Positions 1 through 36,323 are shown, counted from the first letter of the stretch. The stretch: 46,717 nt of DNA from Nanobdellota archaeon (GCA_038046085.1 JBBSWW010000010.1:1-46717); one strand, 5' to 3'. Translations and numbers: made by a program. Notes: a model not told the origin generated them from the letters alone.

Positions 1-760
1 CATTCATTCCATAAAACTCTTTATATAAAACAGAATCCTTATCATTCAATTGTAAGCTCATTATTATCAAATACCTCAAAAATATATAGTAAGCTGAACT
101 TTATAAACCTTTCGATATTTACACCACTATAAAGTAGTATATAAAACCTAGAGGATATATTTTCTAGATTATTGTCATTTTTGATAGTTTAACTTACTTT
201 TTGTCTGTTTCTTGTACTTTTTGTACATGTTATTGACTCGCTGCTTATATACTTCTTAATCTAATATTTATAGCATGATGCTCCACTTATGCTCCAGAAT
301 TGTTAATGAGTTTTATAAAGATTTAATAGAAGATAATATTATGTACACTTTTTCGTATGAAATTTCTAGTGATTTTATTATTCTTATGATTAATAAACAT
401 GTTTCACAATCAGTCATTTACGGACATAAAATCCTACAAGTTTTAAGAATAGTGGCTACAATATGTCTACAAAGCTTAAAAATTGTAAAAAATAATGTTA
501 GTGTATATGCAATGCTAATACAAGACTTAAATATTAAAAATCATAATTGTAATGTGTACCCAATTACAAGAGTTATAAAATAAAGTGTGTACAATATACG
601 TACCATGACTTATAAATCATAAAAAAATAATATAATTATGGAGGTAAAGCTTGGGAAAAACAAAAAACTGCTGAAGAACTCTATAATGCGTTATTGAATA
701 AGTTATCTAAGATAGTAAAAGAAACAGAAAAGGAGTTAAGAAAACTTGAGGAGGAAAAAA

Positions 761-4708: not shown

Positions 4709-5320
4709 TTATTTAATATTATTAAAAAACCTGTTACATAATCTGTAAGAACCGTAAGCAATAAAGAAAGCAGCAAAGACATCAATGCTATAATGAAGAT
4801 GCATGAACAATACAGTCAATGCTAAAATTATTGTAGAAACTAAAAAGAAAATACCTAACTTAGTCTTCCTGAACAATAAAAAACCTAAAAATGGTACAGC
4901 AGTATGGCCTGAGAAGAAAAGATCATTATTGAACAAGAGAAGGTTATAGATATAATTTGCATGGATAACAACAGCATTTTCTGGAGTCTTAAGATGTGTA
5001 AGAGTGATAAAGAAACTCCTTATAAGAATAAGAAGGCTGAACTGGCTTATGACAATATGAAATTTCTTAGTATAGAAAAATAAAGGATATAATAAAAGAA
5101 CTCCAATAACAAAAGCATAACCGTACAAGAAAATATATGAAAGGTCAAAGACTGGAATCCTATCAAGAATAATATCAGAAGCAACAGCTTCACCAGCCCT
5201 TGATACATAATTACCAGAAAAATAATCAAGAATCACAGCAATGACAAGGAAAAGGAAAGAAATCAATATCTGGAATTTATGCTCAACAAATTCTTTCTTA
5301 CATAATTGTAATCTGTTCAT
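4709..5320 (-). CDS. PAP2-superfamily membrane protein, sphingomyelin/IPC-synthase-like
   Basis: DLFFSGHT and HLHYSIDV catalytic motifs; multiple transmembrane segments. Confidence 0.8.
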   Translation of the reverse strand: MNRLQLCKKEFVEHKFQILISFLFLVIAVILDYFSGNYVSRAGEAVASDIILDRIPVFDLSYIFLYGYAFVIGVLLLYPLFFYTKKFHIVISQFSLLILIRSFFITLTHLKTPENAVVIHANYIYNLLLFNNDLFFSGHTAVPFLGFLLFRKTKLGIFFLVSTIILALTVLFMHLHYSIDVFAAFFIAYGSYRLCNRFFNNIK

Positions 5321-5354
5321 AAGCTAAAATTGATTCAATCATTTATAAATAATA

Positions 5355-5948
5355 CTATGAAGAACTTTGAGAACGCATAGACCTTCTTTTCATGAAGCCC
5401 ATTATTTGAAGAATTATAGTAACAACACCTAAAGCCACCATGACAATCTCTATAATAGTGAATTTAGTTCCAGACCTAAGGTATACCTGCATCACAAAAT
5501 GAGTGAAAGCCAGAATAAAAGCTATATAGTTAAAACGATGAATAAACTTCCAATACCTACCTAAGAGCCTCATAGAATAATCATTAGATGTCAAGAACAG
5601 AATAGATATTATAAAAGCAGCGAACAAACCTAAAGTCAGGAAAGGGAAACTAAATATCAATAAAAAGTTCCATTGCAACCCCCAAATTAATACTGATAAG
5701 AAATGAACTAATACAAAGAAAAAAGTGATGATACCAATAGATCTTCTAGGCTCAAGCAAAGGAGCAAAAACTTTAGGATTAAGAACAACTAAAGGACCAA
5801 TAATCAGACTAATACATAATAGCATGAAAGCTGCTAAACCTGAAAACTGAGTGAAGAAAGCATTCGGGCCAGTAACTGCCATAAAATAAGACAATAAAGA
5901 AACAATAGCTAAAATAATTAATGTGAATAAGCTACTAGTCTTTTGCAT
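5355..5948 (-). CDS. Ferric reductase-like heme-binding membrane protein (MsrQ/YedZ-like)
   Basis: RRSIG..VHF, LTSN..LLGRYWKFIHRFNY..THF motifs; about six transmembrane helices. Confidence 0.8.
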   Translation of the reverse strand: MQKTSSLFTLIILAIVSLLSYFMAVTGPNAFFTQFSGLAAFMLLCISLIIGPLVVLNPKVFAPLLEPRRSIGIITFFFVLVHFLSVLIWGLQWNFLLIFSFPFLTLGLFAAFIISILFLTSNDYSMRLLGRYWKFIHRFNYIAFILAFTHFVMQVYLRSGTKFTIIEIVMVALGVVTIILQIMGFMKRRSMRSQSSS

Positions 5949-5967
5949 ACTAAAAAATCAATATAAG

Positions 5968-6558
5968 TTATTTAAAAATGTTATGTATATCATTTTCTTC
6001 AAAAATATAATCAATAGCATTGCGATTAAATGGAACATCAAGTCTTAAACGGTTATGAGTCAAAATACCTGCCAAAACACCAGCAGCCAATCCAATAACA
6101 ACACTATTAGTACCTAAAGTTGTAAATGAACCAACAACTAATACTGATGCTAAAGGACCATTTTTAGGGAAATAATTTTGATTCCTAACCCTAAACAAAA
6201 AATCTGCCTTCAATGAATCCCTATCACCATCCAAATCTCCAGCAGGAAACTCACCAGTAGAGATTACTAATTTTTTATTCTCTCTTATAGTCCAGCAATC
6301 AACAAAATATTCACTGGTACTAGCTTTTTTAGTTCTAGTAAAAGCATTACTATAGGTATTGTTCCAATATTCTCTCCTGTTAAGAAATTGGTTGTTAAAA
6401 ATATTATTAGTCCAATAAAAATGTCTTTCTGCTTCTCCAAGCATAAAATCAGTAGTTAAAGGATTAAAATTGTATGTATAACCTGAACTAATTGCAAGAT
6501 CTTCCAGGGTATTTGGATCACTATTATCTAAAGCATCATAAAAAAATTTCTTATCCAT
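5968..6558 (-). CDS. Hypothetical protein with C-terminal hydrophobic hairpin
   Basis: 196-aa ORF; G/A/V-rich hydrophobic stretch near the C-terminus; no recognisable motif. Confidence 0.65.
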   Translation of the reverse strand: MDKKFFYDALDNSDPNTLEDLAISSGYTYNFNPLTTDFMLGEAERHFYWTNNIFNNQFLNRREYWNNTYSNAFTRTKKASTSEYFVDCWTIRENKKLVISTGEFPAGDLDGDRDSLKADFLFRVRNQNYFPKNGPLASVLVVGSFTTLGTNSVVIGLAAGVLAGILTHNRLRLDVPFNRNAIDYIFEENDIHNIFK

Positions 6559-34760: not shown

Positions 34761-34850
34761 GAAATATGGATAAAGAAACAAGTTTTTAAAGATTTACTTA
34801 TTTTAAATTTTATATTCAACAACAAAAAAAGATATGTAAAACTTATTGAT

Positions 34851-35618
34851 TTATATTTTTCCTTGAAGTAAATTTTCTAAACTAACTCCAATTTTTTTCG
34901 CGACTAATTGTGGCTTCACCACTTCCCCGACAAGACAACCAACGTGGAAGACAAGATTGCAGTCGCCAAAAGCGCCAGACCTATTGCTGTCGCCAACACT
35001 ACTGACGCACACAAAATGCAACCCTTTGCTTGAAGGTAATACTATTCCCATTGTATTTTTTTCAAATTTATAACCTGTTCTTTCTTCAACATCAGTTATG
35101 TAATCTTTTGCTAATTGAACGTCTCCTTCTGCTGCACTTTCTTCCCAAAACTGTCTTCTTAGACTTGCTAAATCGTAAGGGTTATTTCTTAAAGCATTTG
35201 CTTGCTCAGGTGTTAATACAAATCCCATGCTTTCAGAATATTGATCTCTACTAATAGATAAATTTCTATTTTTTAATTCAGTATTCGGATTTAGTTTGTA
35301 AATTAATGGATTTTCTGAAGAAAATTTTACTGCATCACTGTCAGGGTCTGGAATTACTGCTGTGCTTGTATCTACATAAAAACTTCTATGCTTTTCAGCA
35401 TCTGCTGTTTCTACTCTTCCTAGACGAGTTTCCATGAATCTTTTAGGAGATATTGGAAGTCTTGTATGATCAGTCCTTATAGAAGCTCCGTATTCTCTTC
35501 CAGTTATTAATCTATACATTTGAACATGATTTGGACCTTCAAATGTTCTGAAAACTTTTACATCATAAGGCTTTGATGCTTCAGGCGTAAAACTTACTGT
35601 TAATCTTGATTGTGACAT
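34851..35618 (-). CDS. Probable DGR target protein with C-terminal variable region (CLec-like)
   Basis: C-terminal CVSSVGDSNRSGAFGDCNLVFHVGCLVG fits the RS.A.G..NL....GRLVG pattern of archaeal DGR targets and is encoded by a GC-rich run of NNY codons. Confidence 0.7.
   Translation of the reverse strand: MSQSRLTVSFTPEASKPYDVKVFRTFEGPNHVQMYRLITGREYGASIRTDHTRLPISPKRFMETRLGRVETADAEKHRSFYVDTSTAVIPDPDSDAVKFSSENPLIYKLNPNTELKNRNLSISRDQYSESMGFVLTPEQANALRNNPYDLASLRRQFWEESAAEGDVQLAKDYITDVEERTGYKFEKNTMGIVLPSSKGLHFVCVSSVGDSNRSGAFGDCNLVFHVGCLVGEVVKPQLVAKKIGVSLENLLQGKI
34910..35025 (-). repeat. DGR variable-region-like segment with adjacent GAA-loop hairpin
   Basis: 26 of 27 consecutive codons end in C/T and none in A; 66 of 130 bases in 34901-35030 are G/C by hand count; GTGGT-GAA-GCCAC hairpin at 34922-34910. 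Confidence 0.65.
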
Positions 35619-35675
35619 GTTACTTCAAAAATATATAATAAATTGAAGTTTATAAAACTTTCGATACTTTTACTA

Positions 35676-36323
35676 TTACAGAGTAGTAGATAAACTTAAA
35701 TTCTTCACAGCAACCAAAACATTCGTCAAAACATTAGCCTTAACATCATTAATTATCTTAAAACCATTATTTTCCATCAAAGAACTAATCTTATTATTAC
35801 TAAATAAATGAATATTAACAGGTTTACTTAATTTAAGTTTACCATAAGGAATGAAATACAGACCAGATAGGTGATATAATTTGTAAAGTATACCAAAGAA
35901 ATTATTCCTAGGATAGACCAATACAATAATACCATTTTTCTTCAATGATTTAGAGAAACAACTAATAGCTTTAGAAGGATTTTTAGTAAATTCAAGAGCA
36001 CCAGCACACAATATCTTATTAAATTGTTTATCAAATGAAATATTTTCTATATCACCAATAAAACCATTCAAGCCCTTAGAATTATAAACAGAGATAGCAG
36101 TCTGAGAAGAATCTATACCAATAACAGAAGCACCTTTAGATCTTGAGTATAAAGAATAAAAACCAGTACCACAACCAGCATCTAAAATAACATCATTCTT
36201 CTTAGGATTCAAGAATTCTAAAACCAGTTTACGTTCCTTATTAACATGCTTTCCAAGAAATCCAGAAGACCTGGAACTATCATAATCTGAAGAAACATCC
36301 TGAAAATTCTTTTTATTAACCAT
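35676..36323 (-). CDS. Class I SAM-dependent methyltransferase
   Basis: ILDAGCGTG, GIDSS, GALEF, LKKNG. Confidence 0.9.
   Translation of the reverse strand: MVNKKNFQDVSSDYDSSRSSGFLGKHVNKERKLVLEFLNPKKNDVILDAGCGTGFYSLYSRSKGASVIGIDSSQTAISVYNSKGLNGFIGDIENISFDKQFNKILCAGALEFTKNPSKAISCFSKSLKKNGIIVLVYPRNNFFGILYKLYHLSGLYFIPYGKLKLSKPVNIHLFSNNKISSLMENNGFKIINDVKANVLTNVLVAVKNLSLSTTL

What the first reader, a model, noticed from the sequence alone, without database searches (positions are those of the whole stretch)
34851..35618. Orphan DGR-type target gene inside the glycosylation locus
Seen: the gene body has many A-ending codons, but its 3' part reads TGC GTC AGT AGT GTT GGC GAC AGC AAT AGG TCT GGC GCT TTT GGC GAC TGC AAT CTT GTC TTC CAC GTT GGT TGT CTT GTC GGG. 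26 of the first 27 codons end in C/T (13 in C), and local GC is about 50% in a very AT-rich window. Known: DGR template repeats are rich in AAC/AAT codons, adenine-specific mutagenesis turns them into NNY codons, and DGRs are common in DPANN. Inference: this is a variable region diversified in trans by a remote RT/TR cassette, or the remains of one. No RT, Avd or TR is visible in these 46 kb. A hypervariable ligand-binding protein among surface-glycan genes is an unusual context.
Basis: partly seen in the sequence, partly recalled or inferred. Interest (0 to 1): 0.8.

Follow-up and report, generated by a model that had tools for sequence, protein, structure and literature searches.

The report
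Stand-alone DGR variable-protein gene, frozen allele
This small archaeal gene encodes a lectin-fold binding protein whose tip was once rewritten by a mutagenic reverse-transcriptase system, but its template copy is nowhere to be found and the tip now looks frozen.

Summary
In window 34926-35009 (-), 26 of 27 codons end in C/T and GC is 0.54, against 0.33 in the rest of the gene.

The gene (34851-35618, -) belongs to an unannotated family of DGR variable proteins.
- Its model (pLDDT 92.7) matches the nanoarchaeal DGR protein AvpA at Z 16.
- A profile of 44 relatives aligns to a true DGR target on contig C34 of the same genome, whose TR/VR pair differs at 20 sites, all TR adenines.
- Against its 86.5%-identical ortholog, the variable region has dN/dS 8.7, versus 0.52 elsewhere.

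No cognate template repeat was found in this 82%-complete assembly, in four related genomes, or in the metagenome and viral collections. The genome's two DGR cassettes have non-matching templates, and both reverse-transcriptase genes are out of frame at poly-G tracts. The variable-region allele is identical in four runs from three studies.

Best reading: an orphaned, currently static DGR target on a mobile single-gene cassette. This is a new member of a kind already described in Nanoarchaeota. The most novel side observation is a poly-G or (GA)n tract at one conserved spot in 8 of the 32 distinct DGR RT sites examined.

The parts
34851..35618 (-). Variable-protein gene, 255 aa, AvpA-like C-type-lectin fold; no Pfam, NCBIfam or PHROGs family
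   Evidence: ORF. 0 families. The family has 75 representatives at E<=1e-3. AlphaFold model pLDDT 92.7. AvpA 5ioo_A: Foldseek E 6e-4, VIA Z 16.0, rmsd 3.3 over 186 residues.
34926..35021 (-).
   Evidence: Adenine fraction 0.125. 26 of 27 codons end in C/T. High-entropy columns alternate with a conserved framework in 44 relatives. dN/dS 8.65 against the ortholog. 9 of 11 ortholog differences fall where the C32 template has A.
34910..34922 (-). Weakened post-VR hairpin GTGG(T)-GAA-GCCAC
   Evidence: Nine variable regions, five of them proven, have a 5-6 bp GC stem with a GGA or AGA loop at this offset, and the four template repeats seen lack it. The ortholog has GTGGC-GGA-GCCAC. This copy keeps 4 bp and a changed loop.
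34851..34925 (-). Conserved 3' tail of the gene, the best-conserved part at DNA level
   Evidence: 71 of 75 nt identical to the ortholog, against 664 of 768 for the whole gene. The same tail is 87% identical over 85 nt on a C34-type paralog in G080:C14.
35619..35686 (-). Cassette promoter: palindrome CTACT..AGTAG, then CGAAAG/TTTATAAA (BRE/TATA-like), then GA(A/G)G before the ATG
   Evidence: Five-way alignment A3 with mean column identity 76%. blastn matches to C34 6470-6557, window 74-141 and C28. Reading it as BRE/TATA is inference from recalled archaeal consensus.
34837..35686 (.). 850-bp single-gene cassette found at different loci in two genomes of one genus
   Evidence: 85% identical over 852 aligned columns to L005 7933-8782. 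The flanks of L005 are syntenic with this genome's contig C18, where the two flanking genes abut. In G079 the slot syntenic to this window holds 619 nt of unrelated sequence.
1..141 (-). Head (MSLQLNDKDSVLYKEFYGMN...) and promoter of another gene with the same cassette promoter, cut by the contig end
   Evidence: Window 74-141 is 94% identical to the promoter of the C34 target. Translation. The contig end shares its last 55 nt with contig C28.

Best explanation
The gene encodes a small, soluble ligand-binding protein of the C-type-lectin fold. It belongs to the same family as the targets of this archaeon's diversity-generating retroelements. Its last 32 framework-plus-variable codons were written by adenine-specific mutagenic retrohoming from a template repeat of the ...AAY AAY... 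type. That step is inferred from the signature, not observed. The template and its reverse transcriptase are not next to the gene. No template matching at all non-adenine positions exists in the assembly or in the collections searched. The gene travels as an 850-bp cassette with its own promoter and a conserved 3' tail with a hairpin, and it landed in a surface-glycan locus here and at another locus in a sister genome. At present the allele is fixed. It is therefore an orphaned or 'parked' DGR target, kept as one frozen binding specificity. The ligand is unknown.
For: Fold: AvpA is the only significant Foldseek match (E 6e-4), with VIA Z 16.0. Next come a Thermus DGR variable protein at Z 5.8 and animal C-type lectin domains at Z 4.6-5.6.
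Family: hhalign of 44 relatives against the C34 target gives probability 95%, E 3e-8, over 192 columns. That target has a TR/VR pair with 20 of 20 mismatches at TR adenines. At least 5 of 30 family loci in the order carry an adjacent adenine-biased template.
Mutagenesis signature: compared with the ortholog, the VR differs at codon positions 1/2/3 in 12/9/3 places. VR dN is 0.40 and dS 0.047, against dN 0.11 and dS 0.21 elsewhere. 9 of 11 differences lie where the homologous C32 template has A (Fisher p 0.004).
Orphan state: an adenine-tolerant scan of the genome found only A-rich chance hits with 4 or more clashes per 60 nt. The C32 template clashes at 10 non-A positions in 57 nt, and the C34 template has a different framework and length. 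A 47-nt degenerate pattern found only variable regions: 3 metagenome stretches, 0 viral, and 2 of 5 related genomes, which were the genes themselves.
Stasis: contigs of 4 runs from 3 studies cover the VR with 0 differences. One further public contig carries the same allele, and two carry the ortholog's allele unchanged.
Both RT genes are out of frame at G11 and G12 tracts.
Against: The assembly is only 81.7% complete, and DGR loci break assemblies; here several contig ends fall inside such genes. A cognate cassette could therefore be missing. The runs were held as contigs, which drop rare variants, and depth was only 2-8. The ORF is intact, non-VR dN/dS is 0.52, and the 3' tail is the best-conserved DNA in the gene. 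This suggests the homing elements are still under selection. VR dS is lower than in the rest of the gene, which fits rewriting after the two lineages split, so the template was lost recently or not at all. The pattern scan required exact non-adenine matches and would miss a slightly diverged template.
Confidence: 0.6

Rival explanations
1. It is an active remote target. A cognate TR/RT cassette exists in the unassembled part of the genome or on an unbinned element and still rewrites this VR in trans, at a rate too low to show in consensus contigs.
For: The genome is 81.7% complete. Remote targets are documented for other DGRs (Wu et al., PMC5758913, passages read). VR dS of 0.047 is below the gene's 0.21. 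The tail and most of the hairpin are conserved. Contig breaks lie inside cassette-type genes. Poly-G tracts could switch an RT back on.
Against: No cognate template was found in 4 genomes of the genus plus one of the family (85-93% complete), in the metagenome collection that does hold this population's contigs, or in viral contigs. The allele is identical in 3 studies. The hairpin is weakened, and a framework Arg codon reads TGT, a change at a non-adenine site.
Confidence: 0.27
2. The VR is diversified in trans by one of the two cassettes present (C32 or C34) despite imperfect template matching.
For: The C32 template is collinear with the 3' 19 codons, and 18 of its 23 adenines differ from the VR. 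The targets share a promoter, suggesting co-regulation.
Against: There are 10 mismatches at non-adenine positions in 57 nt, and the sequences diverge at the 3' end where homing starts. The 5' part differs by two codons. The C34 template has another framework. True pairs in this family show 0-1 non-adenine mismatches. Both RTs are frameshifted.
Confidence: 0.05
3. It is an ordinary lectin-fold protein whose tip evolves fast under positive selection, with no retroelement involved.
For: No cognate template was found. Position-1/2 excess in the VR against the rest is only modestly significant (Fisher p 0.04).
Against: The third codon positions are frozen as C/T and adenine is depleted to 0.125, as in the proven C34 VR at 0.115. 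Differences concentrate at template-adenine sites. Family members sit next to adenine-biased templates. The hairpin is shared with proven variable regions.
Confidence: 0.05

Closest known systems
AvpA, DGR variable protein of subsurface Nanoarchaeota (PDB 5IOO; Handa et al. 2016, PMC5006420, passages read)
   Same: Same overall fold (VIA Z 16.0, 186 of 209 residues aligned). A short C-terminal variable region of about 27-32 residues with about a dozen AAY-derived positions, ending in G-R-x-V-G-V. Similar size, 255 aa.
   Different: Sequence similarity is not significant (profile E 0.62 over 68 columns, 11-12% identity). From recall of Paul et al. 2015, and not stated in any passage I read, AvpA sits in a complete DGR. 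This gene has no adjacent or cognate template.
'Partial DGRs' of DUSEL4 Nanoarchaeota: target gene, VR and cis elements without an RT (Paul et al. 2015, PMC4372165, section 6 read)
   Same: A target-type gene with an adenine-mutagenesis signature at a site lacking an RT, in a genome that holds several DGRs. The authors leave open the same fossil-or-remote alternative.
   Different: Shown here in addition: the gene is a self-contained cassette at different loci in sister genomes; its allele is static across samples; the resident templates are non-cognate; the resident RTs are frameshifted at poly-G tracts.
Non-adjacent and remote DGR targets such as Treponema (Wu et al. 2018, PMC5758913, passages read)
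   Same: A target gene far from any RT. Trans action of avd/TR/RT is experimentally established according to that paper.
   Different: That class is defined by only A-to-N differences from a template elsewhere in the genome. That criterion was tested here and not met.
Mtd of Bordetella phage BPP-1, the DGR paradigm (recalled; only mentioned in passages)
   Same: C-type-lectin fold presenting AAY-encoded variable residues. A hairpin follows the VR; its role in target recognition is recalled from Guo et al. 2011, which I did not read here.
   Different: Mtd is a phage tail-fibre protein, trimeric, with the FGE subclass of the fold. The AvpA-type variable region has a different conformation.

Membership tests
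DGR variable protein (target gene) | C-type-lectin (or Ig) fold with the variable residues at the C-terminal end | tested here: met
   pLDDT 92.7. AvpA: Foldseek E 6e-4, VIA Z 16.0. Further DGR and animal C-type lectin domains at Z 4.6-5.8.
DGR variable protein (target gene) | A VR paired with a template repeat that differs from it only at template adenines | tested here: not met
   There is no such copy in the assembly. The C32 template has 10 non-A clashes in 57 nt, and the C34 template a different framework. The pattern scans found only variable regions. The assembly is 81.7% complete, so absence is not proven.
DGR variable protein (target gene) | A DGR-type reverse transcriptase in the genome | tested here: met
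   RVT_1 on C34 and C32 with the GMPLGNLTSQ and YVDD motifs, fused to HTH_40. Both are out of frame at G11/G12.
DGR variable protein (target gene) | Adenine-mutagenesis signature: changes at codon positions 1-2 of AAY-derived codons, third position kept | tested here: met
   Differences at codon positions 1/2/3 number 12/9/3 in the VR. dN/dS is 8.65 against 0.52. 9 of 11 differences fall at C32-template adenines.
DGR variable protein (target gene) | Cis elements at the VR 3' end (GC-rich end of homology, hairpin) | tested here: inconclusive
   The hairpin is present at the family's offset but reduced to 4 bp with a GAA-containing loop, against 5-6 bp with GGA/AGA in 9 other variable regions. 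The folding z-score is not significant.
DGR variable protein (target gene) | Ongoing diversification: VR heterogeneity within or between populations | tested here: not met
   0 differences in contigs of 4 runs from 3 studies. The same allele is in L056, and the ortholog allele is unchanged in L055 and L057. These are contigs only, so rare variants are invisible.
Remote (non-adjacent) DGR target in the sense of Wu et al. 2018 | Only A-to-N differences from the template of a DGR elsewhere in the same genome | tested here: not met
   The criterion is as quoted.
Partial DGR / fossil target in the sense of Paul et al. 2015 | Target gene with VR, mutagenesis signature and cis elements at a site without an RT | tested here: met
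   The definition was read.
AvpA-like protein family | Significant sequence homology to AvpA | tested here: inconclusive
   The profile of 44 relatives hits 5ioo_A at E 0.62 over the VR region only. The relationship rests on structure.

The most novel reading that the evidence does not exclude
The gene is one node of a trans-acting, phase-variable diversification network. Variable-protein genes ride on self-contained cassettes of about 850 bp, each with its own palindrome-BRE-TATA promoter and a conserved 3' homing tail with hairpin. These cassettes move between loci and swap tails. The reverse transcriptases that rewrite them are switched on and off by slippage of a poly-G (or GA) tract placed at one conserved spot in the RT reading frame. 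On this reading the VR is not a dead fossil but a parked allele. It is rewritten only in the rare cells in which an RT is in frame and a matching template is present.
Probability: 0.22. Interest if true: 0.75.

Novelty: new member of a known kind. Interest (0 to 1): 0.45.

Why it matters
DGR surveys find targets by looking beside the RT (Roux et al. state this limit). They therefore miss stand-alone targets. In this archaeal order the unannotated family occurs in 37 of 240 genomes, and most fetched copies had no adjacent template. The pool of proteins shaped by DGRs is thus larger than cassette counts suggest, and many copies may be frozen specificities.

The case also gives a clean signature for calling such orphans without a template. 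The signature has four parts: adenine depletion, C/T third positions, a VR-restricted dN/dS far above 1 with low dS, and the family hairpin.

The poly-G tracts in the RT genes, if they truly switch, would put a hypermutation system itself under stochastic on/off control. My literature searches found nothing on this.

Tried and rejected
- Plain blastn (word 7) of the gene against the genome gave no hit on gene nt 598-693.
- The adenine-tolerant scan gave only A-rich chance windows.
- Pfam, NCBIfam and PHROGs gave 0 families.
- BLASTP against the C34 target was not significant. The relationship appeared only with the profile.
The 5-row alignment found one locus.
- I tested whether 'orphan' family members in relatives match templates beside RTs elsewhere in their genomes. 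This made 20 locus pairs over 13 gene loci. It gave 10 weak matches (60-87% identity, mixed mismatches), none on a variable region by coordinates, so no working remote pair was shown. Only RT neighbourhoods listed were fetched.
- The folding energy of the post-VR hairpin is not distinguishable from shuffles (z -0.4 to -1.2). The case for it rests on conservation.
- The script stopped on an N at the locus after L026, so later loci were not examined for hairpins.
- Parts of the stretch without contig cover in runs X9-X11 say nothing.
- Earlier findings of this scan were not open.
- The taxonomy look-up of the AR18 record failed. Its DPANN placement is recalled, not checked.
- Paul et al. 2017 (Nat Microbiol) is not held and supplements are closed. 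Either may already list this family, its orphans or the RT tracts.
- I considered a programmed ribosomal frameshift for the RT tracts. It is less likely because the offsets from the in-frame length go both ways: +1 in C34, C32 and G193, and -1 in G230 and G108 (my reading of the frames).

Full report
**Observation.** The minus-strand ORF 34851-35618 encodes 255 aa. Its codons 204-231 are the quoted string, at window 34926-35009.
- Of the first 27 codons, 26 end in C/T (13 C, 13 T). In the other 228 codons, 91 end in C/T and 116 end in A.
- The binomial P at the gene's own rate is 7e-10.
- GC is 0.536 in the stretch and 0.329 in the rest of the gene. The 100-nt GC profile peaks at 0.53.
- Adenine makes up 0.125 of the 96-nt variable region.
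- C/T endings alone are common in stop-free frames of this AT-rich genome: 545 of 267,156 windows reach 25 or more. Combined with GC of 0.45 or more, only 15 clusters remain, among them this stretch and the proven VR on contig C34.

**What the protein is.** Pfam, NCBIfam and PHROGs give nothing.
- An exhaustive HMMER search finds 75 cluster representatives at E<=1e-3, 11 of them at E<=1e-30. The word-indexed search finds 4.
- In an alignment of 44 relatives the C-terminus reads K-G-L-R-L-L-x-V-G-S-V-x-x-x-x-S-x-A-x-G-x-x-x-L-x-x-x-x-G-R-L-V-G-V-A. The x columns have entropies of 2.5-3.4 bits and are dominated by N, D, Y, S and G. The framework columns are near-invariant.
- AlphaFold2 on that alignment gives pLDDT 92.7 and pTM 0.89.
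- The only significant Foldseek match in the PDB is 5ioo_A, AvpA of Nanoarchaeota (E 6e-4, TM 0.52/0.61).
- VIA-align gives Z 16.0, rmsd 3.3 over 186 residues. Next come a Thermus DGR variable protein (Z 5.8) and animal C-type lectin domains (Z 4.6-5.6).
- By sequence the AvpA match is not significant (E 0.62).

**DGRs in the same genome.** The window is contig C10 of a 40-contig assembly of 802 kb, 81.7% complete. RVT_1 hits lie only on C34 and C32.
- C34 holds a complete cassette: a target gene (5578-6474, -), a VR at 5725-5820 and a TR at 5282-5377. The pair has 20 mismatches, all at TR adenines (16 A>G, 4 A>T), followed by the RT.
- The family profile aligns to that target with hhalign probability 95%, E 3e-8, over 192 columns. 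BLASTP alone does not see it.
- C32 holds the tail of a target gene cut by the contig end, a TR encoding ...RLNNRSNANGNNNLDNNNSRLVGI, and an RT 77% identical in DNA to the C34 cassette.
- The RT carries a C-terminal HTH_40 domain.

**No cognate template.**
- Plain blastn and an adenine-tolerant scan (60-nt windows, both strands) find no template for this VR. The best non-self windows are A-rich chance hits with 4 or more clashes.
- The C32 TR is collinear with the 3' 19 codons, but 10 of its 28 mismatches to the VR are at non-adenine sites. By the family alignment its 5' part is two codons shorter.
- The C34 TR has a different framework.
- True pairs in this family show almost only adenine mismatches: 12 of 13, 14 of 14, 10 of 10, 11 of 11 and 20 of 21.
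- A 47-nt degenerate pattern, fixed at all non-variable positions, found 3 stretches in the metagenome collection, 0 in viral contigs, and only the genes themselves in 2 of 5 related genomes, allowing up to 3 mismatches.
- All three metagenome stretches are variable regions. One is identical to this allele and two are identical to the ortholog's.

**Signature of past mutagenesis.** The one locus found in genome contigs lies in a record titled 'MAG: archaeon GW2011_AR18'. It encodes a 75%-identical ortholog with 664 of 768 nt identical.
- In the 32 VR codons the two genes differ at codon positions 1/2/3 in 12/9/3 places. In the other 223 codons the counts are 33/18/29.
- NG86 gives dN 0.403, dS 0.047 and ratio 8.65 in the VR, against dN 0.110, dS 0.212 and ratio 0.52 outside it.
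- In the 57 nt alignable to the C32 TR, 9 of 11 ortholog differences fall where that TR has A (Fisher p 0.004).
- Synonymous divergence is lower in the VR than in the rest of the gene. This fits both variable regions having been rewritten from one template after the lineages split. That step is inference.

**Stasis now.** Contigs of four public runs from three studies (2019, 2021, 2023) cover the VR with no differences. One of the four may be the source of this DNA. Contigs cannot show rare variants and depth was 2-8, so this shows a stable dominant allele, not an absence of diversification.

**Cis elements.**
- Nine variable regions of the family, including five next to proven templates, are followed 6 nt after the final GG codon by a 5-6 bp GC stem with a GGA or AGA loop, for example GCGCC-GGA-GGCGC. 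The four templates seen lack it and continue GGAATAG....
- The C34 VR and the AR18 ortholog both have the hairpin. This copy keeps GTGG...CCAC with a changed loop.
- The role of such hairpins in target recognition is recalled from work on the Bordetella phage, which I did not read here.
- The 75-nt tail after the VR is the best-conserved DNA in the gene, at 71 of 75. It recurs at 87% identity over 85 nt on a C34-type paralog in a sister genome, G080:C14.

**The gene is a cassette.** The segment 34837-35686 is 85% identical over 852 aligned columns to the AR18 locus, but the flanks are not.
- The AR18 flanks are syntenic with this genome's contig C18, where the two neighbouring genes abut.
- The slot syntenic to this window in the sister genome holds 619 nt of unrelated sequence.
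- The 68 nt upstream of the ATG form a conserved element: a palindrome, then CGAAAG-TTTATAAA, then GA(A/G)G. It is shared with the C34 target, with a gene head at window 1-141, with contig C28 and with AR18.
- The surrounding genes are a flippase-like protein, GT4, two GT2, two methyltransferases, two radical-SAM proteins, a polysaccharide deacetylase and PMT_2. The glycan context is real, but given the relocation it is probably incidental.

**How common are orphans?**
- The family occurs in 37 of 240 genomes of the order, and RVT_1 in 115 of 240.
- By my cross-reading of the two tables, 27 of the 37 family-positive genomes have an RT, against 88 of 203 without the family. Relatives are not independent.
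- Of 30 loci fetched with 1.5-kb flanks, this gene's own among them, 4 show an adenine-biased repeat by blastn and a fifth shows a template by translation. Eight loci are short of the full 1.5-kb flank, at least four of them by a contig end.
- Paul et al. 2015 described two such 'partial DGRs' in Nanoarchaeota and left open whether they are fossils or remote targets (section read).
- Wu et al. 2018 define remote targets by A-only differences from a template (passages). That criterion is not met here.

**Side finding.** Both RT genes of this genome are out of frame at a G11 tract (C34) and a G12 tract (C32), about 25 nt upstream of GMPLGNLTSQ.
- Only six G/C runs of 7 or more exist in the genome. 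The third run of 10 or more lies in frame in a signal-peptide protein on C9.
- Of 32 distinct RT sites examined, 8 carry a simple repeat at the same spot. I partly chose these sites because their RT match was split, so this is not a prevalence estimate.
- The other six are G10 in frame (G073), G6AG5 in frame (G072), G7 out of frame (G230), G9 out of frame (G108 and G193), and a (GA)n run (G126).
- Offsets from the in-frame length go in both directions. This favours slipped-strand switching over a programmed frameshift (inference).
- Two full-text searches and term look-ups in three DGR papers turned up nothing on this. Paul et al. 2017 and all supplements could not be seen.

**Verdict.** This is a DGR-type variable-protein gene without its template, most likely a parked or fossil allele (0.6) rather than an active remote target (0.27). 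In kind it is a new member of what Paul et al. 2015 called partial DGRs. Three things add interest: the cassette behaviour, the signature that allows orphans to be called without a template, and the RT poly-G tracts.

Noticed in passing
G000 contig C34 4696-4706 and C32 1038-1049; also L068, L049, L058, L059, L060, L061: A poly-G tract (G7-G12, or a (GA)n run) lies at one conserved spot in DGR RT genes, about 25 nt before the GMPLGNLTSQ motif. It is out of frame in 5 copies, including both copies of this genome, in frame in 2, and undetermined in 1. It looks like a slipped-strand on/off switch of the mutagenic RT. Nothing on it was found in two literature searches.
   Followed up: partly
window 1-141 (-); contig C28 1261-1434: The head of another gene (MSLQLNDKDSVLYKEFYGMN...) sits behind the same cassette promoter, 94% identical to the C34 target's promoter. 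It is cut by the contig end. C10's left end and C28's right end share their last 55 nt, an assembly fork inside that gene.
   Followed up: partly
L078 (G080:C14, around 55900-56600): A paralog has the body of the C34-type target but the 3' tail of this gene (87% identity over 85 nt, hairpin GTGGC-AGG-GCCAC), and no adjacent template. Tails appear to be exchanged between variable-protein subfamilies.
   Followed up: partly
L072 882-1501 (G079:C16 36537-37156): The slot syntenic to this cassette in the sister genome holds an unrelated ORF of about 165 aa, plus a GC-rich stretch of about 65 nt that looks structured. The glycan locus has a variable insertion slot.
   Followed up: no
L037 position 2261 (G009:C9) and L050 position 2263 (G012:C23): G12 and G15 tracts lie about 85 nt downstream of the RVT_1 match in two further DGR RT loci. 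This is a second recurrent tract position.
   Followed up: no
G000 contig C9 17766: An in-frame G10 tract (…KVGGGAC…) lies in a gene with an N-terminal hydrophobic signal-like segment. It is a candidate phase-variable surface protein.
   Followed up: no
L001 646-1818 (-) (C34 RT, second frame): The DGR RT is fused to a C-terminal HTH_40 domain (E 2e-18). It may bind the palindrome in the cassette promoters or the conserved tail, which is speculation.
   Followed up: no
P0005: A 137-aa database protein is 100% identical to residues 1-136 of this gene. It is presumably the same gene cut by a contig end in another assembly.
   Followed up: no
L018, L023 versus RT loci L044, L051: Weak DNA matches (64-75% identity) link regions upstream of orphan family genes to RT-bearing loci in the same genomes. 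They may be shared promoter elements like the one seen here.
   Followed up: no
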